Part shown: positions 6,027-63,812 of the stretch, one piece after another
Position numbering within the stretch: position 1 is the first letter of the stretch
Layout of the letters: each line of letters starts with the position of its first letter
From: Candidatus Velesiimonas alkalicola
Lineage (GTDB): Bacteria > Omnitrophota > Gorgyraeia > Velesiimonadales > Velesiimonadaceae
DNA length: 64,000 nt
Direction: 5' to 3'
Assembly: GCA_013626165.1 (NCBI GenBank)
Contig: NDHX01000001.1
Coordinates: 100,817 to 164,816, forward strand
Notes under the pieces: generated by a model
The model's input: only the letters and a program-made list of their open reading frames with translations
Databases searched by the model: none
Told to the model about the DNA's origin: nothing
Made by a program: the position numbers and the translations under genes

Positions 6027-8606
6027 ATGGCTATAACAGGTTCTATTGTTTTATCCATCCTTGAGAGCGGATTTTCAAAATTTTCACAGCACCAGACTGT
6101 TGTAAGACAGTTGTCAAATGGCATGGATGTTATAGTGTGTTCAATGGGTGAAAACAATTCGGCATCTGTTCAGGTATGGGTTGCAGCAGGAAGCTCAACC
6201 GAATACCAATGGTCGGGGGCCGGTATATCACACCTTCTTGAACATATGATATTTAAGGGTTCATCAAAAATAACAGGAAAACAGATCGGAGACAGGGTTA
6301 AGGCTATCGGGGGTAAAATCAATGCATATACCTCACATGAAAGAACAGTATTTTTTATTGACTGTCCTAAAGAATATGTTAAAGATGCAATAGAGATTTT
6401 ACATATGATACTTTCGGAGCCTTTGTTTGACCGGCAGGAACTTGAAAAGGAAAAAAATGTAATATTAAGAGAAATGGATATGAGACAGGATTCTCCTGAT
6501 AGGGAAATATCTGAGACACTGTGGGAGACTGCATTCAGGGTTCATCCGTATAAGATTCCAGTGATAGGATATCCTGAACTTTTTAAGAAACTTACAAGAG
6601 AAGACCTTGTAAAATATTATAAGAATTTCTATGGCTCAGAACACTGTGTTCTTGTTGTTGCAGGTGGTATCCAGATTGAAGATGTATTAAAAAAAGCAGA
6701 AATATTTTTCAGTTTTCAAAGGTCCGGTCCTGTTAAAAATCCGGTTGCTCTGGAGCCTCCTCAACTTTCACAAAAAAAGATTCGCAAGACTATGCCTGTG
6801 GATATTGCAAGGTTCATCACTGCATTCCATGGTCCAAGTTTTTATTCACCAGACCTTTATCCGATGGATATGCTTTCTGTTATACTCGGGCAGGGTAGAC
6901 CTTCAAGACTCTATCAAAGACTTATTCAAAAAGAAAATCTTGTATATTCAGTGGACAGCTGGTCTTATACACCGAAAGACCCCGGACTTTTTGGTATATA
7001 TTGCACACTTGATGCAAAAAATTTCGAAAAGGTTGAAAGAATTATTTTTGAAGAAATAGAAAAAATAAAAGAACAGGGTGTAAAAGACGAAGAGATACAA
7101 AGAGCAAAAACAAAAATAGAAAGCGAATATCTTTTTTCAATCCAGACCGCACATGGAACCGCAGCAGATGTAGGTTCTAACTTTGTATTTACAGCAGACC
7201 CGGATTTTTCGGTTTTATATCTAAAAAACATAAAAAAGGTTGATGCTGTATCAATAAGAGAAGCCGTAAAAAAATACCTAACAAATGAAAGATCTGTTAT
7301 TGCAGAACTCTGCTCAGAAGAAAAGAAGACAGTAGAACAGGGTAAGACTGAAAAAGAGTTTTTATCTGTGGAAGAAATAAAACTTCACAATGGGATAAGA
7401 CTTGTTATCCGTCCGAATCCATATGCAAACCTAGTAAGCATAAAGGCTCTTTTCCTTGGTGGGTTAAGAACAGATGAACAGCCCGGCAGTTCCATCGTCC
7501 TTTCTTCAATGCTGGAGTCCGGAACAAGTAAATACAATGCACAGGAACTTGCACTTGAGATAGAAAAAATTGGGGGGCAGAGTTCTGTACATACAGGTTA
7601 CAACTCAATAGGTTGGACAATAGAGGTTCCGCCTGACAATACAGGGAAGGCAATGGACATAATGAAGTCTGTACTTGAAGACTCAGTTTTTCCTGAGGAT
7701 GAGTTCAGTTTAAAAAAATCTCAGGCAATTGCAATAGCAAAACAGGGTTATGAACAGCCCATACATATTGCTCTGAATAGATTGAGAAAAGAACTGTTTG
7801 GAAAACATCCCTACTCAAATCCTCCGGATGGGAATCCAGGTGATTTACAGGATATAAAAATAGAAACGGTTATAAAGCAGGCAGAAGACATAATAAATCC
7901 TCAAAATATGGTTTTATCAATATTCGGGAATTTTTCTAAAAAAGAAACAGAAGACAAAATAAAAGCATCTTTTGGTTCAATCAAACCTGGGAAAGAATTT
8001 AAAATTCAACAGATTCCTTTAGATTTTCCAGAAGCGCCGAAGACCATTGAAGAAGAATTTGATGGAGAAGGGGCCTGTATTGTAATAGGTTTTCCCGGCA
8101 CAACAATGTATTCAGATGACAGATATATATTAGATGTGCTTGCCAATGCAATGAATGACCAGGGTGGAAGTCTTTATCATAGGTTGAGAGATGAAAAGGC
8201 ACTTGCGTATAGTCTTGGCTCTGCAAATATATCCGGGATTGAACAGGGTGCATTCATATTCCATATACTTACATCTAAGGAGAATGTTAAAGAGGCACAT
8301 ACTGAGATACAGAGGTTTATCAATTCTTTAGCAGAACAAATAGAAGAAAAATCAATTGAACTTGCAAAGGCAGAAGCCATAGGCGCACAGGTTCTTCAAA
8401 CACAGACAGAAGGTGGGCTGGGATTTGCAGTGGGTCTGGATGTCTTGTATGGGATGGGGGCAGATAATCAGGAAAAAAGTCTTGAAAAAATAAAAAGAAT
8501 AAAAATAAAAGATGTAAAAGATGTAATACAAGAATATTTTAATCAGGACAGAAAGGTTACAGTTATACTAGGACCAAAGGATACCCAGAACATAGGTGAC
8601 AGGTGA
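6027..8606 (+). CDS. M16-family zinc metallopeptidase, two fused pitrilysin-like modules
   Basis: Inverted zinc motif HLLEHMIFKG...E. ~855 aa, consistent with two modules. ATG at 6027 is 7 nt after AGGAG. The stop TGA is supplied by the GGTGACA repeat. Confidence 0.8.
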   Translation: MAITGSIVLSILESGFSKFSQHQTVVRQLSNGMDVIVCSMGENNSASVQVWVAAGSSTEYQWSGAGISHLLEHMIFKGSSKITGKQIGDRVKAIGGKINAYTSHERTVFFIDCPKEYVKDAIEILHMILSEPLFDRQELEKEKNVILREMDMRQDSPDREISETLWETAFRVHPYKIPVIGYPELFKKLTREDLVKYYKNFYGSEHCVLVVAGGIQIEDVLKKAEIFFSFQRSGPVKNPVALEPPQLSQKKIRKTMPVDIARFITAFHGPSFYSPDLYPMDMLSVILGQGRPSRLYQRLIQKENLVYSVDSWSYTPKDPGLFGIYCTLDAKNFEKVERIIFEEIEKIKEQGVKDEEIQRAKTKIESEYLFSIQTAHGTAADVGSNFVFTADPDFSVLYLKNIKKVDAVSIREAVKKYLTNERSVIAELCSEEKKTVEQGKTEKEFLSVEEIKLHNGIRLVIRPNPYANLVSIKALFLGGLRTDEQPGSSIVLSSMLESGTSKYNAQELALEIEKIGGQSSVHTGYNSIGWTIEVPPDNTGKAMDIMKSVLEDSVFPEDEFSLKKSQAIAIAKQGYEQPIHIALNRLRKELFGKHPYSNPPDGNPGDLQDIKIETVIKQAEDIINPQNMVLSIFGNFSKKETEDKIKASFGSIKPGKEFKIQQIPLDFPEAPKTIEEEFDGEGACIVIGFPGTTMYSDDRYILDVLANAMNDQGGSLYHRLRDEKALAYSLGSANISGIEQGAFIFHILTSKENVKEAHTEIQRFINSLAEQIEEKSIELAKAEAIGAQVLQTQTEGGLGFAVGLDVLYGMGADNQEKSLEKIKRIKIKDVKDVIQEYFNQDRKVTVILGPKDTQNIGDR

Positions 8607-8634
8607 CAGGTGACAGGTGGCTGATGGCTGATGA
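8595..8634 (+). repeat. tandem repeat (GGTGACA)x3 followed by (GGCTGAT)x2, overlapping the stop of the peptidase gene
   Basis: Direct reading: ggtgacaggtgacaggtgacaggtggctgatggctgatga. Confidence 0.8.
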
Positions 8635-20991: not shown

Positions 20992-21064
20992 GCTGCTGTA
21001 GCTCAGTCGGCAGAGCACGTCCTTGGTAAGGACGGGGTCATGGGTTCAATTCCCATCAGCAGCT
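20992..21064 (+). tRNA. tRNA-Thr (anticodon GGT)
   Basis: Cloverleaf folds by hand: acceptor GCTGCTG/CAGCAGC, D arm GCTC..GAGC, anticodon stem CGTCC/GGACG with loop TTGGTAA, T arm ATGGG-TTCAATT-CCCAT. CCA is not encoded. Confidence 0.9.
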
Positions 21065-21148
21065 TTAAAAAAATATAAAAGAAAAAATACTTAAAGGCAA
21101 AAAGTAAAGTGACTGGTGCCTGATGCACTGGCAAACAGGAGGTAAAAA

Positions 21149-22351
21149 ATGGCAAAAGAAAAATTTCTCAGGACAAAACCGCATGTAAATGTAGGGACCA
21201 TAGGACATGTTGACCATGGAAAAACAACACTGACAAGTGCAATAACAAAAGTATTATCTAGCAAGGGATTGGCTCAGGCAAAGACATTTGAAGAAATAGA
21301 TAATGCGCCTGAGGAAAGAGAAAGAGGAGTAACAATAAATGTACACCATGCGGAATATCAAACACAGAACAGGCACTATGCACATGTGGACTGTCCAGGT
21401 CACGCAGACTATATAAAGAATATGGTTACAGGAGCGGCACAGATGGACGGAGCAGTATTAGTGGTAAGTGCAGTAGATGGTCCTATGCCGCAGACAAGAG
21501 AACACATACTTTTGGCAAGACAGGTGGGAGTTCCTGCAATGGTGGTGTTCTTAAACAAAACAGATGCAGTAGAAGATAAAGAATTAGTAGATTTAGTTGA
21601 AATGGAAGTGCGAGATTTATTAAGCAAATATGAGTTTCCTGGGGATAAGATACCGGTGGTAAGAGGAAGTGCATTAAATGCAATGAACTGTGGATGTAGC
21701 AAAGATGATTGTCCAAACTGCAAGTCCATACTGGAATTGATGTCAGCAGTAGATAGCCATATACCTGAGCCTGTAAGAATAACGGACAGGGCATTTTTAA
21801 TGTCCGTAGAAGATGTATTTAGCATAAGCGGCAGAGGAACAGTAGGAACAGGAAGAGTAGAAAGAGGAATAGTCAAAGTAGGAGAAGAAGTAGAAATAGT
21901 AGGGATACAGACAGAGAGCAGAAGGACAGTAGTAACAGGGGTAGAGATGTTCAGGAAGTTGTTAGACGAAGGAAGAGCAGGAGACAACATAGGGGTATTG
22001 TTAAGAGGGATAGAAAAAAAAGACTTAGAAAAAGGGATGGTCATATCGGCACCAAATACAATAACGCCACACACACAATTCAAGGCACAGGTATATGTAT
22101 TAACAAAAGAAGAAGGTGGAAGACACACACAATTTTTCAGCGGCTACAGGCCTCAGTTTTTCTTCAGGACAACAGATGTAACAGGAGTAATAACATTACC
22201 GCAAGGAACAGAAATGATAATGCCTGGCGACAATGTATCTGCAACAGTAGATCTGATAGTACCTGTGGCAATGGAAAAAGAGCAAAGATTTGCAATCCGC
22301 GAAGGAGGAAAGACAATAGGAGCAGGCGTGGTAACAGAGATAATAAAATAA
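21149..22351 (+). CDS. tuf: elongation factor Tu (copy 1, tufB-like position after tRNA-Thr)
   Basis: [23 protein letters not shown]. 400 aa. It differs from copy 2 by one residue. Confidence 0.95.
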
Positions 22352-22401
22352 CAGGAGATAGTAGGTGGGAGGTAGTAGGTAGGAAAGAAATAGGGGAAAG
22401 A

Positions 22402-23961: not shown

Positions 23962-24157
23962 AGGTGACTGGCATAAGAGGCAGGAGGTAGTAGGTAGTAG
24001 ATAGTAGGTAGGAGGTAGTAGGTAGTAGATAGTAGGTAGTAGGTAGGAGGTAGGATAAAAAATGGGGACTGGCGACTGGAACCCCGGGCACCAGGGTATC
24101 CTTCAGAACGGGGTTTGTATCTTCGGATACTTTCCGGGTGTGGCACTTCGGAGAACG
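23962..24157 (+). repeat. composite mosaic repeat: GGTGACTGG connector + (G[T/G]AG[G/A]TA)n heptamer array + GACTGG..GGCACCAG + module A (49-nt conserved hairpin block)
   Basis: Heptamers at 23983-24054. Module A cggggtttgtatcttcggatactttccgggtgtggcacttcggagaacg at 24109-24157 is identical to 46902-46950. Confidence 0.75.
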
Positions 24158-24188
24158 ACTAACAGTGAATGTTAACATAAAAACAGTG

Positions 24189-24887
24189 ATGAAAAAACAT
24201 AGTAAAAGATACGAAAAGATACTTTCTCAACTTCCGAAAGAAGAAAAAATTTGGAAGATAGCAGATGCGGTAAAGGTTTTAAAGGAATTACCACCTGTAA
24301 AATTTAATGAGACAGTGGCTCTTTCATTTAAGACGGACATAAATCCAAAACAGTCTGACCAGAATATAAGAGGAACGGTTGTTCTACCTAATGGCTTGGG
24401 CAGGAAGGTCAGGGTTGCGGTGTTTTGTAAGGGAGAGCATGAGAAGGCAGCAAAAGATGCAGGGGCAGATGTTGTAGGTGCAACAGACCTTGTAGAAAAG
24501 GTTGCTGGCGGATTTCTTGACTTTGATGTTGCAATTGCCACACCTGAAATGATGCGCGAAATGGGAAGGCTCGGTAAAGTGCTTGGTCCAAAAGGATTGA
24601 TGCCAAACCCAAAGGTAGGAACTGTTACAACAGATGTTGGAAAAGTGGTAAAAGAAGCAAAGGCCGGACGCGTTGAGTATCGTATGGATAAACAGGGCAA
24701 TATCCATGTGGCAGTGGGTAAGATTTCGTTTGAACCGAGTGCAATAGTTGAAAATGCTTCAACTGTTATAGAGTCGGTTTTTAAGGCAAGACCTGCTGCA
24801 TTAAAAGGACAATATATTAAAAGTATTCATATAGCAAAAACAATGGGCCCTGGTTTAAGGTTAGACATAAGTCAGTTCAAATTGTAA
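24189..24887 (+). CDS. rplA: 50S ribosomal protein L1
   Basis: MKKHSKRYEKI..., SDQNIRGTVVLPNGLGR. The upstream part of the listed ORF is read from repeat DNA. Confidence 0.9.
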   Translation: MKKHSKRYEKILSQLPKEEKIWKIADAVKVLKELPPVKFNETVALSFKTDINPKQSDQNIRGTVVLPNGLGRKVRVAVFCKGEHEKAAKDAGADVVGATDLVEKVAGGFLDFDVAIATPEMMREMGRLGKVLGPKGLMPNPKVGTVTTDVGKVVKEAKAGRVEYRMDKQGNIHVAVGKISFEPSAIVENASTVIESVFKARPAALKGQYIKSIHIAKTMGPGLRLDISQFKL

Positions 24888-24925: not shown

Positions 24926-25026
24926 GTGACAGGTAAAAGCCGTATATCGTATTCTGTATATCGTGAAAGAAACAGAGCACAGAATACGGACGACGGGTGA
25001 TGGAATACGGTATACGAAATACAAGT
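24926..25026 (+). promoter_or_regulatory. rplJ leader carrying a 10-bp inverted repeat (CGTATTCTGT / ACAGAATACG) and a GGAATACGGTATACGAAATACA motif
   Basis: Lies where L10(L12)4 autoregulatory leaders are usually found. The motif is shared with the rpsK upstream region. Confidence 0.35.
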
Positions 25027-32700: not shown

Positions 32701-33720
32701 TACACAATCTCAATAGTTTCAGAAGTATCAGGGCGTGTCCAGTATATGGATATAAGATCCGGTGTTACAATGCGTGAAGAATTAGACCCTGCCACAGGTA
32801 TCACAGGCCGTATTATTACAGAACACAAGGGAGATTATTATCCACAGATATTGATAAAAGATGAAAAAAATGAGATTCTTGCAACATATCCTGTCCCAAC
32901 AGGTGCTCATATAATGGTAGATGAAAAACAGGAAGTTGAAAGTGGCGATGTGATAGCAAAGACACCAAGAAAGATAACAAAGACAAAAGATATTACAGGT
33001 GGGCTTCCGAGGGTTGCAGAACTTTTTGAAGCAAGAAAGCCCAAGAACCCTGCGATAATAAGTGACATCTCAGGTGTTGTTGATTTTGGTCCTGCAAAAA
33101 GAGGACACAGAAGAATCATTGTAAAGAATCCTCAAACACAGGATGAAAGAGAATACCTTGTCCCGTCAGGGAAGCATATCCTTGTGTATAAAGGTGACAA
33201 TATAACAGCGGGACAGCAATTAACAGATGGCCCTGTTGTTTTACAGGATATATTAAAAACACTTGGAGATAAGGCGTTGCAAGAATATCTTGTTAATGAA
33301 ATACAGGAAGTATACCGTCTTCAGGGTGTTCGTATAAATGATAAACATATAGAAGTTATTGTTCGTCAGATGATGAGAAGAGTAAGCATTACAGACCCCG
33401 GTAATTCGGATTTTCAGGAAGGAATGCATGTTGATAAATTTAAGTTTAATGATGTGGTTACTGCATTAAAAAAGAAGAATAAAAATTTGCCTAAGGCCAT
33501 GCCAACACTTCTCGGTGTAACAAAAGCATCTTTAAGCACGGAAAGCTTTATCTCTGCTGCAAGTTTTCAAGAAACGACGCGTGTTCTTACAGAGGCGGCC
33601 TTAGCCGGTAAAAAAGATTTTCTCCTTGGATTAAAAGAAAATGTTATTATGGGGCATCTAATCCCAGCAGGGACAGGGTATCACTCACATCATGAATTTG
33701 AGATAGAAAGGGAAAAATAG
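29752..33720 (+). CDS. rpoC: DNA-directed RNA polymerase subunit beta'
   Basis: Zn finger CYCGKY...[25 protein letters not shown], and so on. The TAG stop is the first unit of the heptamer array. Confidence 0.95.
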
Positions 33721-33985
33721 TAGGTAGGAGGTAGTAGGTAGGAGGTAGGAGGTAGGAGGTAGGAGGTAGGAGGTAGGAGGTAGTAGGTAGTAGGTAGGAG
33801 GTAGGAGGTAGTAGGTAGGAGGTAGGGAAAAAAATGGTGACGGATGACTGGTGACAAGCGACTGGAACCCGGGCACCAGTGCACCAGAGCACCCTCTGGG
33901 TGGGGGTAAAACATAATCCCCCGACCCATCCTTTGGATGGGTGCCCCGCCCCTCCTTTTGTAAAGGAGGAGGGGTGGATTATGGT
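33718..33985 (+). repeat. composite mosaic repeat: heptamer array (33718-33826) + GGTGAC../GGCACCAG connector + module B (~70-nt three-hairpin element, 33912-33983)
   Basis: Module B core cataatcccccgacccatcctttggatgggtgccccgccc.tccttttgtaaag...ggggtggattat is shared with 41711-41783. Confidence 0.75.
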
Positions 33986-34023
33986 TTGAAAAAATTTGTG
34001 TCTAATAAAAAAGAAAGAATAAT

Positions 34024-34886: not shown

Positions 34887-34891
34887 AATTG

Positions 34892-35017
34892 TAAATACTC
34901 AGTCAACTGTGTTACCTGAAGGCACAAAGGCGCAAGGTGACAAAGGTACAAAGCATAAGAAAAGAATCTAAAAGGACAGTCCACTTTGTGCCTGTGTGCC
35001 TTAAGTGCCTCTGTGCC
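34892..35017 (+). repeat. 'AATACTCAGTCAACTGTGTTACCTGAAGGCACA' repeat plus GGCACA / TGTGCC inverted iterations
   Basis: The first 43 nt are near-identical to 18332-18375. This is followed by ggcacaaaggcgcaaggtgacaaaggtacaaagc ... ctttgtgcctgtgtgccttaagtgcctctgtgcc. Confidence 0.55.
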
Positions 35018-35142
35018 TAAAATATGAACTGAATTTAGTGAATATTTACGGTTTTCCTTTATTTTAAGATTCTAAACTTGCTGAACTAATGATGGAACAA
35101 AATATCTTATTAGAATTTAACAAAAAGGAATATAAAAATATT

Positions 35143-37218
35143 ATGGAAGTAAAATATACTTTACAAAAATTACGCAATGTAGGTATTATTGCACATATTG
35201 ATGCAGGGAAAACAACTACCACAGAGAGAATTCTCTATCATGCTGGAACCATTGATAGAATGGGAAATGTTGATGATGGAACAACACAGACAGACTGGAT
35301 GGTTCAGGAAAGGGAAAGAGGTATAACTATTACAAGTGCCTGTACCACCAGTTTTTGGAAAGACTGCAGAATAAACATCATAGATACACCGGGGCATATT
35401 GATTTTACCGTAGAGGTAGAAAGAAGTTTAAGGGTTCTTGACGGTGCGGTTGTGATATTCTGTGCTGTAGGAGGAGTTGAGTCTCAATCTGAAACAGTAT
35501 GGAGACAGGCAGATAGGTATCATGTTCCAAGGATTGCTTTTATTAATAAAATGGACAGGATAGAAGCAGATTTTTTTGGAACCCTGAAACAGATACAACA
35601 AAGACTTGGCGCAAATGCAGCAGCGGTTGAGATACCCATAGGGGTTGGACAAAATTTAGAAGGTGTTATAGACCTTATTAAAATGAAATCTCTTATCTAT
35701 GATATTAAAGACATTACAGGTAGATTTAAGGTTGGTTCAGTTTCACCTGACCTTTTAGAAATGGCAAAACTGTATCGCGCAAAACTTATTGAGTCTGTCG
35801 CAGAGACCGATAAAAATATTATGGAAAAGTTTTCGCACGATCAGGAAATAAAAGAAGGAGAACTATCATCTGCCATAAGAAGACAGACGATAGCAGGAAA
35901 GTTTGTTCCGGTTCTTTGCGGTTCATCACTTAAAAATATAGGTGTTCAACCTATTTTAGATGCAGTTGTAGACTGGTTGCCAAGCCCGGTTGATGTCCCC
36001 CCTGTTCAGGGGATTGTTCAGGGTAAAGATGTAATAGAACAAAGGAAAGCATCGGATGATGAGTATTTTTCTGCACTTGCATTTAAGATAATGATAGATC
36101 CATATGTTGGAAAACTCACATTTTTAAGGGTCTATTCAGGCATACTAAAATCAGGTTCCTACATATATAACGTAAGCAGGGACAAAAAAGAAAGAATTGG
36201 AAAACTTCTTAAAATGCATGCAAACAGGCAGGAAATAATTGAAGTGGTAAAAACTGGAGATATTGCTGCTGCTGTAGGACTAAGAGAAACAAAAACGGGT
36301 GATACCATATGTGATGAACAACATCCTGTAATCCTTGAGTCCATGCATTTGCCACAGCCTGTTATATCCCTTGCAATTGAACCTTTGACAAGACAGGATC
36401 AGGATAAACTTTCTCTTGCACTTTCAAGATTGCAGGACGAAGACCCTTCGTTTTGTGTTTCTTATAATGAAGAGACGGCACAGACGCTTATTTTGGGTTT
36501 TGGAGAATTGCATCTTGAAATAATTGTTGACAGATTGAAAAGAGAATTCAATGTTCAGACACAGGTTGGAAAACCGCATGTTGCATATAAAGAAACATTG
36601 ATTAAACCTGTAAGACAGGAAGGAAAGTTTGTGCAGCAGAGCGGCGGGCGTGGACAGTATGGGCATGTCGTATTTGAGATAGAGCCCATAGAAAGAGGTT
36701 CAGGAATAGTGTTTGAAAGTGCGCTACGCGGAACAAGTATACCCAGAGAATATGTTCCCTCTATAGAACAGGGAGTAATAGAATCCGCACAGACAGGACC
36801 TTTGGGAGGATTTCCTGTTGTAGATGTAAAGGTAGTGCTTATAGATGGCTCATACCATGAAGTAGATTCTTCAACATTCGCATTCAAGATGGCAGGCTCT
36901 ATCGGATTTAGCGCAGCACTTAGATCGGGGGGTTCAATGCTCCTTGAGCCTATTATGGATGTGGAGGTTGTGGTTCCTGAGGAATATTTAGGCGATGTAA
37001 TTGCTGATATGGGAGCTCGCAGGGCAAAGATAGAACAACTTTCACAGAGAGGCAATGTCCGTGTTATAAGAGGATTTATTCCTCTTTCAGAGCTTTTTGG
37101 ATATGCAACTGCTGTTCGTTCTGTAAGTCAGGGAAGGGCATCATATGTAATGCAGCCAGCATATTATGCAGAGGTTCCAAAAAATATAAAAGAAAAAATA
37201 CTTAAAGGCAAAAAGTAA
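35143..37218 (+). CDS. fusA: elongation factor G
   Basis: Start at MEVKYTLQKLRNVGIIAHIDAGKTTTTERILY, aligned to the EF-G N-terminus. The listed ORF starts 18 codons earlier. Confidence 0.93.
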   Translation: MEVKYTLQKLRNVGIIAHIDAGKTTTTERILYHAGTIDRMGNVDDGTTQTDWMVQERERGITITSACTTSFWKDCRINIIDTPGHIDFTVEVERSLRVLDGAVVIFCAVGGVESQSETVWRQADRYHVPRIAFINKMDRIEADFFGTLKQIQQRLGANAAAVEIPIGVGQNLEGVIDLIKMKSLIYDIKDITGRFKVGSVSPDLLEMAKLYRAKLIESVAETDKNIMEKFSHDQEIKEGELSSAIRRQTIAGKFVPVLCGSSLKNIGVQPILDAVVDWLPSPVDVPPVQGIVQGKDVIEQRKASDDEYFSALAFKIMIDPYVGKLTFLRVYSGILKSGSYIYNVSRDKKERIGKLLKMHANRQEIIEVVKTGDIAAAVGLRETKTGDTICDEQHPVILESMHLPQPVISLAIEPLTRQDQDKLSLALSRLQDEDPSFCVSYNEETAQTLILGFGELHLEIIVDRLKREFNVQTQVGKPHVAYKETLIKPVRQEGKFVQQSGGRGQYGHVVFEIEPIERGSGIVFESALRGTSIPREYVPSIEQGVIESAQTGPLGGFPVVDVKVVLIDGSYHEVDSSTFAFKMAGSIGFSAALRSGGSMLLEPIMDVEVVVPEEYLGDVIADMGARRAKIEQLSQRGNVRVIRGFIPLSELFGYATAVRSVSQGRASYVMQPAYYAEVPKNIKEKILKGKK

Positions 37219-37259
37219 AGTGACTGGTGCCTGATGCACTGGCAAACAGGAGGTAAAAA

Positions 37260-38462
37260 ATGGCAAAAGAAAAATTTCTCAGGACAAAACCGCATGTAAA
37301 TGTAGGGACCATAGGACATGTTGACCATGGAAAAACAACACTGACAAGTGCAATAACAAAAGTATTATCTAGCAAGGGATTGGCTCAGGCAAAGACATTT
37401 GAAGAAATAGATAATGCGCCTGAGGAAAGAGAAAGAGGAGTAACAATAAATGTACACCATGCGGAATATCAAACACAGAACAGGCACTATGCACATGTGG
37501 ACTGTCCAGGTCACGCAGACTATATAAAGAATATGGTTACAGGAGCGGCACAGATGGACGGAGCAGTATTAGTGGTAAGTGCAGTAGATGGTCCTATGCC
37601 GCAGACAAGAGAACACATACTTTTGGCAAGACAGGTGGGAGTTCCTGCAATGGTGGTGTTCTTAAACAAAACAGATGCAGTAGAAGATAAAGAATTAGTA
37701 GATTTAGTTGAAATGGAAGTGCGAGATTTATTAAGCAAATATGAGTTTCCTGGGGATAAGATACCGGTGGTAAGAGGAAGTGCATTAAATGCAATGAACT
37801 GTGGATGTAGCAAAGATGATTGTCCAAACTGCAAGTCCATACTGGAATTGATGTCAGCAGTAGATAGCCATATACCTGAGCCTGTAAGAATAACGGACAG
37901 GGCATTTTTAATGTCCGTAGAAGATGTATTTAGCATAAGCGGCAGAGGAACAGTAGGAACAGGAAGAGTAGAAAGAGGAATAGTCAAAGTAGGAGAAGAA
38001 GTAGAAATAGTAGGGATACAGACAGAGAGCAGAAGGACAGTAGTAACAGGGGTAGAGATGTTCAGGAAGTTGTTAGACGAAGGAAGAGCAGGAGACAACA
38101 TAGGGGTATTGTTAAGAGGGATAGAAAAAAAAGACTTAGAAAAAGGGATGGTCATATCGGCACCAAATACAATAACGCCACACACACAATTCAAGGCACA
38201 GGTATATGTATTAACAAAAGAAGAAGGTGGAAGACACACACAATTTTTCAGCGGCTACAGGCCTCAGTTTTTCTTCAGGACAACAGATGTAACAGGAGTA
38301 ATAACATTACCGCAAGGAACAGAAATGATAATGCCTGGCGACAATGTATCTGTAACAGTAGATCTGATAGTACCTGTGGCAATGGAAAAAGAGCAAAGAT
38401 TTGCAATCCGCGAAGGAGGAAAGACAATAGGAGCAGGCGTGGTAACAGAGATAATAAAATAA
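37260..38462 (+). CDS. tuf: elongation factor Tu (copy 2, str-operon position)
   Basis: Identical to copy 1 except A vs V at one position (gca vs gta). Confidence 0.95.
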
Positions 38463-38467
38463 CAGGA

Positions 38468-38549
38468 GATAGTAGGTGGGAGGTAGTAGGTAGGAAAGAA
38501 ATATTTTTTCCTATCTACTACCTACTATATCCTACCTCCTATATTTTTT
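38468..38549 (+). terminator. intrinsic terminator built from a heptamer array and its inverted copy, followed by TTTTTT
   Basis: gatagtaggtgggaggtagtaggtagg ...loop... cctatctactacctactatatcctacctcctata then tttttt. This is the only place in the window where the heptamer occurs as its reverse complement. Confidence 0.6.
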
Positions 38550-38560
38550 GGGGGAAAGAG

Positions 38561-38864: not shown

Positions 38865-39012
38865 GTCTGCTGAAAAACTCATCAGACCTTAAAATCGGTG
38901 TAATCTTTCCAAAATCTGTGTAATCAGGGCTTACTGGATGTGTTAATATAACACAGTAAGCCCAGTCTTTAAGAGCACCAGAGCACCAGAGCACCAGTGC
39001 ACCAGTTATAGA
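38865..39012 (+). repeat. spacer with two hairpins (GGTCTG..CAGACC; GGGCTTACTG..CAGTAAGCCC) and a (GAGCACCA)x4 octamer array
   Basis: Read directly. The octamers are the reverse complement of the TGGTGCTC family. Confidence 0.6.
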
Positions 39013-41518: not shown

Positions 41519-41790
41519 AGTAGGTAGTAGATAGTAGATAGTAGGTAGTAGGTAGTAGGTAGTAGGTAGTAGGTAGTAGGTAGTAGGTAGTAGGTAGTAG
41601 ATAGTAGGTAGTAGGTAGTAGATAGGAGATAGTAGGTAGGAAAAAAAATGGTAACTGGTGACCGGTGACTGGAACCCCGGGCACCAGGGCACCCTTTGGG
41701 CAGGAGAAAACATAATCCCCCGACCCATCCTTTGGATGGGTGCCCCGCCCTTCCTTTTGTAAAGAAAGGCAGGGGTGGATTATCTTTTCT
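41519..41790 (+). repeat. composite mosaic repeat occupying the canonical rpsS slot: heptamer array (41519-41640) + GGTAACTGGTGACCGGTGACTGG/GGCACCAG connector + module B
   Basis: Module B at 41711-41783 is shared with 33912-33983 and differs by a few changes inside the hairpins. Confidence 0.75.
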
Positions 41791-42180: not shown

Positions 42181-42215
42181 TAGTAGATAGTAGGTAGTAG
42201 GTAGTAGGTAGGAGA
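42181..42215 (+). repeat. heptamer array (TAGTAGATAGTAGGTAGTAGGTAGTAGGTAGGAGATGGAGGT) supplying the SD for rpsC
   Basis: GGAGGT lies 6 nt before the GTG start of rpsC. Confidence 0.65.
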
Positions 42216-42227
42216 TGGAGGTAAAAT

Positions 42228-42872
42228 GTGGGACAAAAAGTAAATCCTATTGGTTTAAGATTAGGGATTGTAAAAGACTGGAGTTCTCGTTGGTTTGCGC
42301 CTGCGAAAGATTATGCAGACCTATTAAACGAGGATGTTGGTATAAGAAAATATATCTATAAGTTATTTGCTCAGGCAATGGTTGCAAAGGTTGATATAGA
42401 AAGAGCAGGCGACCGTGTGCGGATTATTATACATACTGCCAGACCGGGAATTATCATAGGAAGAAAAGGGGCAGATGTTGACAGGCTCAAGGAAGATTTA
42501 CAAAAAATTACAAATAATAAAGAAGTTTATATAGATATTCAGGATGTAAAAGAGCCGCTCCTTAATGCAAGACTTGTTGCTGAAAATATTGCATATCAGA
42601 TACGGAAACGTATTTCATACAAAAGAGCAATGAAAAAGGCGATACAGTTAAGTATGAATGCAGGAGCAAAAGGCATAAAAATAGCCTGTGCGGGAAGACT
42701 TGCAGGTGCCGAAATGGCAAGAGAAGAAACAAGAAAAGAAGGGAAAGTTCCTCTTTCTACATTAAGGGCTAATATTGACTATGCATGTATACAGGCGCTT
42801 ACTATGTATGGAACAATAGGTGTAAAGGTTTGGATATATAGTGGAGAAATAGTGCCACAAAAAAATAGGTGA
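42228..42872 (+). CDS. rpsC: 30S ribosomal protein S3
   Basis: GTG start. MGQKVNPIGLRLG...KH domain. Confidence 0.93.
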   Translation: MGQKVNPIGLRLGIVKDWSSRWFAPAKDYADLLNEDVGIRKYIYKLFAQAMVAKVDIERAGDRVRIIIHTARPGIIIGRKGADVDRLKEDLQKITNNKEVYIDIQDVKEPLLNARLVAENIAYQIRKRISYKRAMKKAIQLSMNAGAKGIKIACAGRLAGAEMAREETRKEGKVPLSTLRANIDYACIQALTMYGTIGVKVWIYSGEIVPQKNR

Positions 42873-45993: not shown

Positions 45994-46066
45994 CAGGTGA
46001 CAGGTGACCGGTGCACTGGTGCACTGATGCACTGATGCACTGATGCACTGGTGCACTGGTGCACTA
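45994..46066 (+). repeat. GGTGACAGG + octamer array (GCACTGRT)x7
   Basis: caggtgacaggtgaccggtgcactggtgcactgatgcactgatgcactgatgcactggtgcactggtgcact. Confidence 0.75.
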
Positions 46067-46659: not shown

Positions 46660-46950
46660 AAAAAATGGTGACTGGCATAAGAGGCAGGAGGTAGTAGGTA
46701 GTAGATAGTAGGCAGTAGATAGTAGGTAGTAGATAGTAGGTAGTAGATAGTAGGTAGGAGGTAGGATAAAAAATGGGGACTGGCGACTGGAACCCCTGGC
46801 ACCAGGGTATCCTTCAGATGGGGGGGGGATTATGTTTTGAATTTATTTGTAATTTGAGATTTGTTTAAGATTTCCTCGTTAGAAGTAAAAAAACTTCTAA
46901 ACGGGGTTTGTATCTTCGGATACTTTCCGGGTGTGGCACTTCGGAGAACG
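46660..46950 (+). repeat. composite mosaic repeat: GGTGACTGG connector + heptamer array (46677-46766) + GACTGG..GGCACCAG + G-run + module A (46902-46950)
   Basis: The first ~150 nt are near-identical to 23962-24100. Module A is identical to 24109-24157. Confidence 0.75.
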
Positions 46951-46982
46951 GTCTCTACGGTAAATATTGTTTATGGGGGCAC

Positions 46983-47339
46983 ATGAAAGTAAATAATCAA
47001 ATAGGATTGCTCAGGCGCCACAAGCGTATAAGAAAAAAAATATCAGGAACTGAGAAAAGACCGAGACTTTGCGTTCATAGAAGTCATAAAAATTTATACG
47101 CTCAGATTATAGATGATACGCAAGGAAAGACACTGGTTTCATTTTCTACTTTAAGCCCTGAATTTTCTGGGCAAAAAGGTGGAAATATTAAGTCTGCAGA
47201 ATCACTTGGTGAAAAAATAGCAAAGATTGCTGTGGAAAAAGGGCTCAGTGAAGTCATATTTGACAGGGGTGGCTATCTTTATCACGGGAAGATAAAGGCA
47301 TTTGCAGACGCAGCTCGCAAGGCAGGTTTGAAGTTTTAA
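46983..47339 (+). CDS. rplR: 50S ribosomal protein L18
   Basis: ATG at 46983 after [24 protein letters not shown]. The upstream 25 codons of the listed ORF are repeat-derived. Confidence 0.9.
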
Positions 47340-51576: not shown

Positions 51577-51578
51577 AA

Positions 51579-51607
51579 TAGTAGGTAGTAGGTAGGAGGT
51601 AGGGGGG
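51579..51607 (+). repeat. heptamer array (TAGTAGGTAGTAGGTAGGAGGTAGGGGGG) forming the SD of rpmJ
   Basis: Read directly. Lies between the infA stop and the rpmJ ATG. Confidence 0.65.
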
Positions 51608-51612
51608 AAGTT

Positions 51613-51726
51613 ATGAAAGTTCGATCATCAGTTAAAAGAATTTGTGAAAAATGTAAGATTGTAAGGCGTCAAGGTGTTGTAAGGGTGATATGTAAGATAC
51701 CAAAACATAAACAAAGGCAGGGATAA
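51613..51726 (+). CDS. rpmJ: 50S ribosomal protein L36
   Basis: 37 aa [37 protein letters not shown]. Below the ORF-track cutoff. Confidence 0.85.
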
Positions 51727-51777
51727 ACAATGAAACAAGATGACTGGTGCTCTGGTGCCCTATAATTGGGGGGAGAA

Positions 51778-52173: not shown

Positions 52174-52311
52174 TATGTAGTAGATAGGTAAAAGATGTAT
52201 ATCGTTGTCCGTCGTACGTATACCGTATAAAGAAAAAGAAGTGGAATATAATATACGGAATACGAAATACAGGTGTTTGGGATTTGTAATTTATCAGAAA
52301 AGGGGGATTAA

Positions 52312-54407: not shown

Positions 54408-54879
54408 AAAGGATAATAAAAGACTTTCACGCACCACAGGACATAGAACAGCAATGGTAAGAAATATGGCAACCAGCCTTTTTGAAAATGAAAAAATTAC
54501 AACAACTGTTCAGAAGGCAAAATTTTCAAGAAGGTTTATTGAAAAACTCATAACATTTGGAAAAAAAAATACACTTGCTGCAAGAAGAATGACTGAAAAA
54601 ATGCTTGGTAAAAAAAACATTGTCCATATGCTTTTTAGTGAAGTTGCGCCCTTATTTGCCAATAGACAGGGAGGATATACAAGAATTGTAAAAAGCAAAT
54701 TCAGGGCAGGTGATGGGGCACAATTATGTGTATTTGAACTTGTAGAAAAAAGGCAGAAGTCTATTGAACAGCCAGAGCAGGCTGTAGATAAGAAGACTGT
54801 AGAAAAACATCCCACTCAACCTACAGAAGAAAAAAAAGGTGCAATTAAAAAAATAAAGAGAATATTCCACAGAAAATAG
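54397..54879 (+). CDS. rplQ: 50S ribosomal protein L17
   Basis: [25 protein letters not shown]. The TAG stop is the first heptamer unit. Confidence 0.93.
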
Positions 54880-54931
54880 TAGGTGGTAGATAGTAGGTAG
54901 TAGATAGTAGATAGTAGGTGGTAGATAGTAG
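54877..54931 (+). repeat. heptamer array (TAGTAGGTGGTAGATAGTAGGTAGTAGATAGTAGATAGTAGGTGGTAGATAGTAG)
   Basis: Read directly, downstream of rplQ. Confidence 0.7.
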
Positions 54932-54974
54932 AAAAAACAAATATCAAACTGCTCGTGTGTTCTTGAGAGAAGGT

Positions 54975-56219: not shown

Positions 56220-56317
56220 TTAAAAAAATTATTTTTTGTGTTTGACAAAATTTGTTTTTTTGGTACAATACCCCGACGGGTGGGGTTTAGATAGATATAG
56301 GGGAAAGATTATTCGGC

Positions 56318-63744: not shown

Positions 63745-63812
63745 GGTGACAGGCGACCGGCAACAGATGCTCTGGTGCTCTGGTGCTCTGGTGCCCTGGT
63801 GTTCCAGTCACC
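63745..63812 (+). repeat. GGTGACAGGCGACCGG + (GCTCTGGT)x4 octamer array + inverted GGTGACTGGAA
   Basis: ggtgacaggcgaccggcaacagatgctctggtgctctggtgctctggtgccctggtgttccagtcacc. Confidence 0.7.

What the first reader, a model, noticed from the sequence alone, without database searches (positions are those of the whole stretch)
24109..24157. Module A: a 49-nt sequence identical upstream of rplA and rplR (46902-46950), containing a cUUCGg tetraloop hairpin
cggggtttGTATCttcgGATACtttCCGgGTGtggCACtTCGGagaacg is 49/49 identical at the two loci. Each copy ends 30-32 nt before the start codon. The rplA position is where L1 autoregulatory mRNA sites normally lie. A perfect copy before rplR, which normally has no leader, argues for a mobile or copied regulatory hairpin module. 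Perfect identity implies recent copying or strong constraint.
Basis: seen in the sequence. Interest (0 to 1): 0.7.

Follow-up and report, generated by a model that had tools for sequence, protein, structure and literature searches.

The report
Repeated spacer cassette before rplA/rplR
The identical 49-base sequence is real, but it is only the tail of a ~195-base spacer cassette that an uncultured Omnitrophota bacterium carries between several ribosomal-protein genes, and nothing shows it to be a dedicated L1 control site.

Summary
The 49-mer occurs exactly twice in the window, at 24109-24157 and 46902-46950. It ends 31 nt before the rplA ATG and 32 nt before the rplR ATG. Independent assemblies of the same population (The Cedars serpentinizing springs) confirm both junctions.

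It is not a stand-alone module. The two intergenic spacers share one whole cassette, 191/195 identical (97.9%) apart from a 7-nt and an 82-nt indel:
- a 22-nt head;
- a C-free heptamer array rich in Shine-Dalgarno-like AGGAGGT;
- a G+C-rich constant region;
- the 49-mer.

At that identity a substitution-free 49 nt has P = 0.36, so the perfect identity needs no special constraint.

A third cassette, without the 49-mer, lies between convergent non-ribosomal genes. Sister cassettes with a different 3' module precede rpsL and rpsS. No further copy of the 49-mer turned up in any searchable collection, and there was no Rfam match.

Four of five relatives have a 0-5 nt rplK-rplA spacer. The fifth has a 23S-like GGGAGG-hairpin-CCGAC site, which the 49-mer lacks.

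Best reading: this is the 3' end module of a lineage-specific mosaic intercistronic repeat, spread by recombination and co-transcribed. It probably acts as a generic structural boundary upstream of the ribosome-binding site. An L1 operator is unlikely.

The parts
24109..24157 (+). Module A, copy 1 (the 49-mer). Hairpin 1 is GTATC-TTCG-GATAC at 24117-24130. Hairpin 2 is at 24131-24154. The 5' CGGGGTTT (24109-24116) can pair with GAACCCCG at 24079-24086.
   Evidence: Exact match; folds. The junction with the unique rplA flank is confirmed in BBPE01006696 and BBPG01002242.
46902..46950 (+). Module A, copy 2 (the 49-mer), ending 32 nt before the rplR ATG at 46983.
   Evidence: Exact match. It is contiguous in BBPG01000421 from rplF to rplR.
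23963..24108 (+). Body of the type-I cassette in the rplK-rplA spacer. Head GGTGACTGGCATAAGAGGCAGG is at 23963-23984. The C-free heptamer array (AGGTAGT/AGATAGT/AGGTAGG, about 10 units) is at 23985-24053. The A-run plus G+C-rich constant region, ending CTTCAGAA, is at 24054-24108.
   Evidence: Tandem repeats; alignment to the rplF-rplR spacer; C-free run of 87 nt.
46667..46818 (+). Body of the type-I cassette in the rplF-rplR spacer, with the same head, array (one extra heptamer at 46741-46747) and constant region.
   Evidence: Alignment A1: 191/195 identical with the rplK-rplA cassette outside the indels.
46819..46900 (+). An 82-nt segment present only in the rplR copy. It starts with GGGGGGGGGATTATGTTTTGAATTTATTTGT, the alternative 3' end of type-I cassettes as in L014, which resembles the 3' end of module B. 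An A/U-rich hairpin TTAGAAGT-AAAAAA-ACTTCTAA follows; its flanks CCTCG and CGGGG can extend the pairing into module A.
   Evidence: Present in BBPG. Absent from the BBPE scaffold next to an N gap.
24158..24191 (+). Unique 31-nt stretch plus the rplA ATG. It has no Shine-Dalgarno motif and is A-rich.
46951..46985 (+). Unique 32-nt stretch plus the rplR ATG, with GGGGG 4-8 nt upstream of the ATG.
33718..33985 (+). Sister (type-II) cassette between rpoC and rpsL: heptamer array (TAGGAGG x 15.6), constant region and module B, with no module A.
   Evidence: The fold of 33836-33995 has z = -4.4.
41519..41785 (+). Sister (type-II) cassette between rplB and rpsS: heptamer array (AGTAGGT x 17), constant region and module B.
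   Evidence: Module B is 98% identical between the two copies (family D10).

Best explanation
The 49-mer is the 3' end module of a lineage-specific, modular ('mosaic') intergenic repeat cassette. The host is an uncultured Omnitrophota population from The Cedars hyperalkaline springs.

A cassette consists of:
- a 22-nt head;
- a variable-length, C-free heptamer array full of Shine-Dalgarno-like AGGAGGT/AGGTAGT units;
- an A-run;
- a G+C-rich constant region;
- one of several alternative 3' modules. These are module A; the GGGGnGnGGATTATGTTTTGAATTTATTTGT end; or, in the sister type, module B.

Shown: the rplA and rplR copies are two near-identical instances of one such cassette. Inferred: they were produced or homogenised recently by recombination or gene conversion between spacers. 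Also inferred: in at least the rplK-rplA case, the cassette was inserted into a junction that is tightly coupled in relatives.

Inferred mechanism: the cassette is co-transcribed inside the long r-protein operon mRNAs. The unstructured array is an accessible, single-stranded, 30S-binding or cleavable segment. Module A then folds into two adjacent hairpins, plus a helix between its 5' CGGGG and an upstream C-run. This places a compact structured block a fixed ~31 nt upstream of the next start codon. That is far enough to leave the ribosome-binding site free. Such a block would act as a generic boundary or 5' protective structure for the downstream cistron.

It is not a protein-specific operator.
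For: Whole-cassette identity is 191/195 plus 7-nt and 82-nt indels, so a substitution-free 49 nt is expected (P = 0.36).

A third type-I cassette lies in BBPF01001878 between convergent genes, next to a ROK kinase. It ends with the alternative 3' end and has no module A.

Sister cassettes with module B sit before rpsL and rpsS. The 82-nt insert of the rplR copy begins with that alternative end, which shows mosaic shuffling of modules.

Every stand-alone heptamer array in the window is on the coding strand, in spacers of translation-gene operons. The only reverse-complement copy forms the 3' arm of the hairpin after tuf-2 (38463-38551). No cassette hit was found in the ~8 kb fetched beyond the window's left edge.

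Relatives have rplK-rplA spacers of 0-5 nt, so the 230-nt spacer here is an insertion.

There is no sigma-70-like promoter or intrinsic terminator in module A, which fits read-through transcription.

The 5' CGGGG of the module is paired with a different upstream C-run at each locus. At rplA the partner is GAACCCCG. At rplR it is CCTCG. In strain BBPG the partner reads TCTCG, which still allows a U-G pair.

The distance to the ATG is the same at both loci, 31 and 32 nt.
Against: - Only two copies of module A are known, and they are identical. There is therefore no covariation evidence for any structure.
- The predicted fold is not more stable than shuffles (z = -1.2 for the module, -0.8 with the constant region).
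- No transcript, 5'-end or processing data exist.
- The genome-wide census is incomplete. The source genome is not in the GTDB-representative or JGI collections, and short-read assemblies break at these repeats (N gaps; Logan contigs ending at the cassette head).
- The boundary or stabiliser function is inferred from anatomy only. A neutral repeat would look the same.
- No transposition hallmarks were seen, so how the cassettes spread is unknown.
Confidence: 0.5

Rival explanations
1. Neutral or selfish repeat. The cassettes, including module A, are non-functional repetitive DNA. They are generated by slippage and spread or homogenised by ectopic recombination, and are merely tolerated in the spacers. 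The hairpins and the 31-32 nt spacing are incidental.
For: Fold stability is no better than shuffles. There are only two copies of module A and no conservation in relatives. Array length and the 82-nt segment vary between strains that are 99.5-99.9% identical. Near-identity of the whole cassette is best explained by recent copying.
Against: The cassettes sit inside essential, highly expressed operons, at junctions that are translationally coupled in relatives. All stand-alone arrays have the same strand orientation. The arrays are strictly C-free and rich in AGGAGG. In several spacers the array runs straight into the functional Shine-Dalgarno sequence of the next gene (42181-42230, 51577-51613). 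This suggests selection at the RNA level.
Confidence: 0.3
2. Module A is an autoregulatory protein-binding hairpin, namely an L1 operator before rplA, and a copy has been recruited before rplR.
For: In some phyla the L1-interacting RNA lies directly before rplA, between rplK and rplA (PMC3616713). One Omnitrophota relative (L032) has a 23S-like site at that position. Module A is small and hairpin-shaped, lies close to the start codon, and rplA has no Shine-Dalgarno sequence.
Against: Module A has no stem with an internal G-A bulge plus an unpaired A, and no GGGAGG...CCGAC motif (sequence inspection). There is no Rfam hit at E <= 10. The identical sequence precedes rplR, whose product binds 5S rRNA. 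The module is absent from the 81%-identical relative and from three others, whose rplK-rplA spacers are 0-5 nt. It is embedded in a repeat family that also occurs in non-ribosomal contexts.
Confidence: 0.06
3. Non-autonomous mobile element. The cassette would be a MITE or an IS200/IS605-type palindrome-associated element, with module A's hairpins as the transposase-recognised right end.
For: The cassette has discrete 5' and 3' ends shared by copies at unrelated loci. Hairpins lie at the 3' end. Insertions are strand-specific, and the 82-nt segment is polymorphic between strains.
Against: No terminal inverted repeats and no target-site duplication are seen. The left flanks differ (AGAA / AAAT / ACAA), so there is no conserved target tetranucleotide. 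No transposase of that type lies in the window or in the fetched flanks. Different copies carry different 3' ends.
Confidence: 0.08
4. DNA-level signal. Module A would be a promoter or a binding site for a DNA-binding regulator that drives rplA and rplR as separate transcription units.
For: It lies at a fixed distance upstream of two start codons. The rplR copy follows a U-rich, terminator-like stretch in the 82-nt insert.
Against: No sigma-70-like hexamer pair lies in or around the module. The organism does use canonical TTGACA-17-TACAAT promoters, for example at 56260-56290. TGGCAC is present, but no sigma-54 -12 element (TTGC) follows it (sequence inspection).
Confidence: 0.04
5. Assembly artefact. 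The second copy would result from a repeat-induced chimeric path in a metagenome assembly.
For: Public assemblies have N gaps or contig ends exactly at these cassettes. The BBPE scaffold shows an rplA-type junction at the rplR locus.
Against: Module A is joined to each unique downstream flank in two independent assemblies. The rplF-to-rplR spacer is contiguous, without Ns, in BBPG01000421. A 57-nt repeat is shorter than typical reads.
Confidence: 0.02

Closest known systems
BIMEs / REP elements of Escherichia coli (bacterial interspersed mosaic elements; from established knowledge)
   Same: Short, extragenic and often intercistronic. Co-transcribed and strand-oriented. Built from a small set of modules combined in different orders. 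Able to form hairpins that delimit or stabilise mRNA segments within operons.
   Different: No sequence similarity. The cassettes here are not built on an imperfect palindrome with a GTAG head. They contain a long C-free heptamer array with Shine-Dalgarno-like units. No RAYT transposase has been identified. Only a handful of copies are known, against hundreds of REPs.
BOX elements of Streptococcus pneumoniae (boxA - boxB(n) - boxC; from established knowledge)
   Same: The architecture matches: a head module, a variable number of tandem internal units, then a tail module. They are intergenic, lineage-restricted, and reported to affect neighbouring genes.
   Different: The internal units here are 7 nt rather than 45 nt. 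The tail modules are alternative (A, B or the ATTATG end). The cassettes lie inside r-protein operons. There is no sequence relationship.
L1-interacting autoregulatory RNA (Fu et al. 2013, PMC3616713; Rfam-type r-protein leader)
   Same: The position is directly upstream of rplA, between rplK and rplA, as in Cyanobacteria, Actinobacteria, Chloroflexi and many Firmicutes. It is a small hairpin RNA.
   Different: It lacks the defining stem with an internal G-A bulge and unpaired A that mimics 23S rRNA. It is not conserved in relatives. An identical copy sits before rplR. It is part of a dispersed repeat.
STAB-SD and 5' stabiliser stem-loops (B. thuringiensis cryIIIA STAB-SD; E. coli ompA 5' hairpin; from established knowledge)
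   Same: These are Shine-Dalgarno-like sequences far from any start codon, or hairpins at the 5' side of an mRNA segment, that protect the downstream RNA from decay. The heptamer array (AGGAGGT repeats) followed by module A hairpins ~31 nt before the ATG has the same layout.
   Different: This is a functional analogy only. Here the elements are internal to polycistronic mRNAs and are repeated up to 17 times. No decay or processing data exist.

Membership tests
L1-interacting r-protein leader RNA | Located in the leader of rplK or directly before rplA | tested here: met
   Copy 1 ends 31 nt before the rplA ATG, between rplK and rplA. Criterion from PMC3616713.
L1-interacting r-protein leader RNA | A 6-12 bp stem with an internal bulge holding a G-A pair followed by an unpaired A, mimicking 23S rRNA H77 (GGGAGG...CCGAC-like) | tested here: not met
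   The predicted hairpins are a 5-bp UUCG hairpin and a 10-bp stem with a single U bulge. No GGGAG or CCGAC is present. Relative L032 does show GGGAGG-hairpin-CCGAC. This test is by inspection only, since no covariance model of the family was available.
L1-interacting r-protein leader RNA | Conserved at the same locus in related organisms | tested here: not met
   The rplK-rplA spacer is 5 nt in the 81% relative L002. It is 4 nt, overlapping, and 5 nt in L034, L037 and L040. The module pattern is absent from 596 Gb of genomes and from the metagenome collection.
L1-interacting r-protein leader RNA | Specific binding of L1 and repression of translation | not testable with these tools
   Needs EMSA or filter binding, plus reporter assays.
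Any curated Rfam family | Covariance-model match | tested here: not met
   The gathering-threshold scan of the whole window found only 2 tRNAs. E <= 10 scans of both loci gave only noise.
Mosaic intergenic repeats (BIME/BOX-like) | Several copies in intergenic DNA, built from shared modules in different combinations | tested here: met
   Five cassettes were found. A and D are type I with module A. L014 is type I with the alternative end. B and C are type II with module B. The D copy carries both 3' ends in tandem.
Mosaic intergenic repeats (BIME/BOX-like) | High copy number dispersed around the genome | tested here: inconclusive
   About 72 kb of the genome, plus one 4.8-kb contig, could be read. 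The source genome is not in the searchable DNA collections.
MITE / IS200-IS605-derived element | Terminal inverted repeats with target-site duplication, or a conserved target tetranucleotide with subterminal hairpins at both ends | tested here: not met
   The ends GGTGACTGGCATAAG... and ...CTTCGGAGAACG are not inverted repeats. The flanks differ and show no duplication.
Sigma-70 promoter | TTGACA-like and TATAAT-like hexamers 16-18 nt apart | tested here: not met
   No site lies in 24050-24190 or 46800-46985.
Intrinsic terminator | G+C-rich hairpin followed by a U tract | tested here: not met
   Module A is followed by GACTAAC at rplA and GTCTCTA at rplR. The scan finds none there. Only the start of the 82-nt insert scores as terminator-like.

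The most novel reading that the evidence does not exclude
The cassettes would be a previously undescribed system of portable intercistronic leaders that re-partition the giant r-protein/RNA polymerase operons of this hyperalkaliphilic Omnitrophota. A C-free array of Shine-Dalgarno-like heptamers would act as a 30S landing or stabilising platform. Exchangeable structured 3' modules would confer a shared post-transcriptional control on the next cistron. Module A precedes two 50S genes (rplA, rplR) and module B precedes two 30S genes (rpsL, rpsS). Module A would then be a true regulatory RNA recognised by a common factor and spread by cassette copying.
Probability: 0.12. Interest if true: 0.7.

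Novelty: new variant of a known kind. Interest (0 to 1): 0.35.

Why it matters
If the cassettes are functional, they would show an uncultured, extreme-environment bacterium reorganising expression of its most conserved operons. Repeat cassettes have been inserted at junctions that are translationally coupled in its relatives. They would also provide a natural example of long arrays of Shine-Dalgarno-like sequences working outside translation initiation.

For the finding as submitted, the main value is corrective. A perfectly identical 49-mer before rplA looks like an r-protein operator, yet it is explained by recent duplication of a larger repeat. Such repeats also break short-read assemblies of this population at exactly these loci.

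Tried and rejected
1. Degenerate stem-preserving pattern of module A (GTATCNNNNGATACNNNCCGNGTGNNNCACNTCGG). It gave 0 hits in GTDB representative genomes, the metagenome collection and IMG/VR. The source genome is not in these collections, so this is not a genome-wide census.
2. Constant-region pattern (GACTGGAACCCN{1,2}GGCACCAG). The genome scan gave 6 hits, all in unrelated taxa with 56-71% G+C and no neighbouring heptamer arrays, so they are probably chance matches. The metagenome scan gave one true hit, L014, among 10.
3. Six-frame peptide trick. I concatenated translations of the module and constant region and searched 5.8 billion predicted proteins, hoping to catch spurious ORFs called over other copies. 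Nothing scored at E <= 10. This is a weak negative.
4. Low-stringency blastn of the 57-mer against the window and all fetched loci. No diverged copies were found.
5. blastn of the cassette against PLSDB plasmids. No match.
6. Rfam at the gathering threshold and at E <= 10. Nothing.
7. Short-ORF reading. The TTG (rplR locus) and GTG (rplA locus) starts inside the module are in different frames relative to it, so there is no shared peptide.
8. Sigma-54 reading of TGGCAC. No TTGC follows at the right spacing (inspection).
9. Supplementary alignments of Fu et al. 2013, wanted for building an L1-site covariance model, are not held. Nevskaya et al. 2005 is not held either.
10. Extension beyond the right edge of the window failed, because no exact protein was on record.

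Full report
OBSERVATION

The 49-mer CGGGGTTTGTATCTTCGGATACTTTCCGGGTGTGGCACTTCGGAGAACG occurs exactly twice in the 64-kb window, at 24109-24157 and 46902-46950. Both copies are on the + strand. No third match appears even with three mismatches, and none occurred in 100 shuffles. Searches with each half of the module and a low-stringency blastn found no diverged copies in the window or in any fetched locus.

Pfam confirms the flanking genes as L11 and L1, and L6 and L18. The rplA ATG is at 24189 and the rplR ATG at 46983, so the module ends 31 and 32 nt upstream.

The predicted fold has two adjacent hairpins:
- GUAUC-UUCG-GAUAC, a C(UUCG)G tetraloop;
- a 10-bp stem with one bulged U.

Its energy (-13.7 kcal/mol) is not better than dinucleotide shuffles (z = -1.2).

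SOURCE AND RELIABILITY

The window's L1 is identical to a protein on NCBI contig BBPE01006696, and all close homologues are Omnitrophota. Assemblies BBPE01, BBPF01 and BBPG01 are metagenomes of The Cedars, a serpentinizing, hyperalkaline groundwater site (PMC7005843).

These independent assemblies are 99.5-99.9% identical to the window. They contain module A joined to the unique rplA flank and to the unique rplR flank. The duplication is therefore not an artefact of one assembly.

The same assemblies have N gaps or contig ends exactly at the repeats.

WHAT THE REPEAT REALLY IS

Aligning the two complete spacers shows that the repeated unit is the whole intergenic cassette, not the 49-mer. It runs from GGTGACTGGCATAAGAGGCAGG, 5 nt after the rplK stop, to ...GGAGAACG.

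The two cassettes are 191/195 identical. They differ further by one 7-nt array unit and by an 82-nt segment present only in the rplR copy. At that substitution rate a 49-nt stretch without change has probability 0.36. The 'perfect identity' therefore carries no extra information about constraint.

The cassette has four parts:
- a 22-nt head;
- a C-free array of about ten heptamers (AGGTAGT, AGATAGT, AGGTAGG), many of which read AGGAGGT;
- an A-run;
- a G+C-rich constant region (TGGGGACTGGCGACTGGAACCCCGGGCACCAGGGTATCCTTCAGA).

Module A follows.

A FAMILY OF MOSAIC CASSETTES

Two further cassettes in the window have an array, a related constant region and a different 3' module, 'module B'. Module B is 98% identical between its two copies. 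These cassettes lie between rpoC and rpsL, and between rplB and rpsS. The rpoC-rpsL one is strongly structured (z = -4.4).

A scan with a constant-region pattern found one more type-I cassette in the sister assembly BBPF01001878. It lies downstream of one gene and convergent with a ROK-family kinase gene. It ends with GGGGCGTGGATTATGTTTTGAATTTATTTGT... and has no module A.

The 82-nt insert of the rplR copy begins with this same alternative end, which in turn resembles the 3' end of module B. The rplR spacer therefore carries both alternative ends in tandem, whereas the rplA spacer has module A fused directly to CTTCAGA.

The BBPE scaffold shows the fused form at the rplR locus as well. It lies next to an N gap, so it may be a chimeric assembly path.

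Shorter arrays of the same heptamers occur in other spacers of the translation-gene region. Stand-alone arrays are always on the coding strand. Sometimes an array runs directly into the Shine-Dalgarno sequence of the next gene (42181-42230, 51577-51613). Once, an array paired with its reverse complement forms a hairpin followed by a T-run after tuf (38463-38551). No cassette hit was found in the ~8 kb fetched beyond the window's left edge.

DISTRIBUTION

A stem-preserving degenerate pattern for module A gave no hit in any of these:
- one genome per GTDB species (596 Gb);
- the metagenome collection;
- IMG/VR.

The cassette also gave no hit in PLSDB plasmids. A six-frame peptide query against 5.8 billion predicted proteins found nothing either.

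The nearest relative (L1 81% identical; L002) has a 5-nt rplK-rplA spacer. It has a 1.2-kb insertion of unrelated sequence between rplF and rplR, with no module A. Three more distant Omnitrophota have rplK-rplA spacers of 4 nt, an overlap, and 5 nt.

So the 230-nt spacer here is a lineage-specific insertion into a junction that is normally tightly coupled.

The census within the source genome remains incomplete, because that genome is not in the searchable DNA collections.

THE L1-OPERATOR IDEA

Fu et al. 2013 report that the L1-interacting RNA does lie directly before rplA in several phyla. It is a 6-12-bp stem with an internal bulge containing a G-A pair and an unpaired A (PMC3616713).

One relative (L032, 60% identical L1) has a 64-nt rplK-rplA spacer reading GGGAGG-UCCUGC-CGAC-GCGGGG-CCGAC. 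As far as I recall the 23S H77 region, this looks like it.

Module A has nothing of the kind:
- it has no GGGAG, no CCGAC and no internal G-A bulge;
- no Rfam family matches even at E <= 10;
- the same sequence precedes rplR;
- it is embedded in a repeat family that also occurs outside ribosomal genes.

I rate the operator hypothesis at about 6%.

OTHER READINGS TESTED

- Promoter or terminator. No sigma-70-like promoter or intrinsic terminator lies in or next to the module. The organism clearly uses canonical promoters, for example TTGACA-17-TACAAT near 56260.
- Mobile element. There are no terminal inverted repeats, no target duplications and no conserved target sequence. A MITE or IS200/IS605-type element is therefore not supported.
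- Short ORF. Potential start codons inside the module are in different frames at the two loci.

MECHANISM (INFERRED)

The cassettes are most likely read through as part of the operon mRNAs. The array is a long stretch without C, so it has little capacity for stable pairing, and it is rich in anti-Shine-Dalgarno-complementary units. It is a plausible 30S-binding or endonuclease-accessible segment.

Module A follows as a compact block. Its 5' CGGGG pairs with a C-run upstream:
- GAACCCCG at the rplA locus;
- CCTCG at the rplR locus;
- TCTCG in strain BBPG, which still allows a U-G pair.

The two hairpins come next. The block ends a constant ~31 nt before the start codon, far enough to leave the ribosome-binding site free.

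I therefore propose that it acts as a generic boundary or 5'-protective structure for the downstream cistron. This would be analogous to REP/BIME hairpins, 5' stabiliser stem-loops and STAB-SD elements (established knowledge). That step is anatomy-based inference. A neutral repeat is a serious rival (about 30%).

VERDICT

The cassette family is a new variant of a known kind (mosaic intergenic repeats). It has an unusual feature, long Shine-Dalgarno-like heptamer arrays inside r-protein operons. That gives the locus moderate interest (0.35) even though the 49-mer itself is largely explained.

Noticed in passing
window 22353-22384, 23985-24053, 33718-33826, 38464-38495, 41519-41639, 42181-42216, 46689-46764, 51577-51604, 54876-54932: C-free heptamer arrays (TAGGAGG / TAGTAGG / TAGTAGA, up to 17 units and 149 nt without a C) sit immediately after stop codons in the translation-gene operons, always on the coding strand. 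Many units are perfect Shine-Dalgarno sequences (AGGAGGT occurs 22 times in the window). Some arrays run straight into the real ribosome-binding site of the next gene. They may be 30S standby or STAB-SD-like platforms.
   Followed up: partly
window 33908-33985 and 41707-41785: Module B (AAAACATAATCCCCCGACCCATCCTTTGGATGGGTGCCCCGCCC...GGGGTGGATTAT) precedes rpsL and rpsS. Its 58-nt core is 98% identical between copies, although the rest of the two cassettes has diverged. The rpoC-rpsL copy (33836-33995) folds into three predicted hairpins with z = -4.4. It looks more like a constrained structured RNA than module A does.
   Followed up: partly
window 8594-8619, 21120-21145, 37219-37245, 38972-39005, 45999-46065, 51735-51761, 63763-63805: A second family of short tandem repeats occurs in spacers in both orientations. 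These are 7- and 8-mers such as GGTGCACT, GGTGACAG and AGAGCACC. The constant region of the cassettes looks like a forward run of these units followed by an inverted run.
   Followed up: no
window 38463-38551: Downstream of the second tuf copy, a forward heptamer array is followed by its reverse complement and a T-run. This gives a ~40-bp hairpin that looks like an intrinsic terminator built from the repeat units.
   Followed up: no
window 24930-25025 and 52190-52275: Another shared spacer module lies before rplJ and before rpsK: ...GTATATCGT...ATACGGnATACGAAATACArG. It is made of ATACG-type short repeats and their complements. The rplJ position is where L10 leaders normally lie, yet Rfam finds no L10 leader there.
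   Followed up: partly
window 21061-21360 vs 37172-37471, and 21149-22351 vs 37260-38462: There are two tuf genes. Repeat family D6 shows 99% identity over a 300-nt stretch covering ~90 nt of shared upstream sequence and the start of the gene. A shared downstream heptamer stretch is also present. This fits gene conversion acting in the region.
   Followed up: no
L021 5463-5554 (BBPE01003146) vs L020 5700-5860 (BBPG01000421): The two springs' assemblies differ at the rplF-rplR spacer. BBPG has the 82-nt segment and a shorter array with a GTCAAGG junction, as in L014. BBPE shows the rplA-type junction without the segment, but next to an N gap. This is either real cassette conversion between strains or a chimeric assembly path.
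   Followed up: partly
L002 4056-5301 and 6733-7260 (JGI 3300045482): The 81%-identical relative has a 1.2-kb insertion between rplF and rplR. The insertion holds a ~320-nt element bounded by 22-nt inverted repeats (CTAGTGCTCTGTATCATAAATA...) and a 167-aa ORF with no Pfam hit. In this relative, rplK-rplA-rplJ directly follow rplO. It also has its own, different short tandem repeats in spacers.
   Followed up: no
L032 3223-3286 (ENA ERZ27247220): A more distant Omnitrophota relative has a 64-nt rplK-rplA spacer containing GGGAGG-UCCUGC-CGAC-GCGGGG-CCGAC. This is a good candidate for a canonical L1-binding mimic of 23S rRNA in this phylum.
   Followed up: no
window 34887-35088: The rpsG-fusA spacer holds GGCACAAAG/GGTACAAAG-type repeats followed about 60 nt later by their complements (CTTTGTGCCTGTGTGCC...). 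This is another long hairpin assembled from short tandem units.
   Followed up: no
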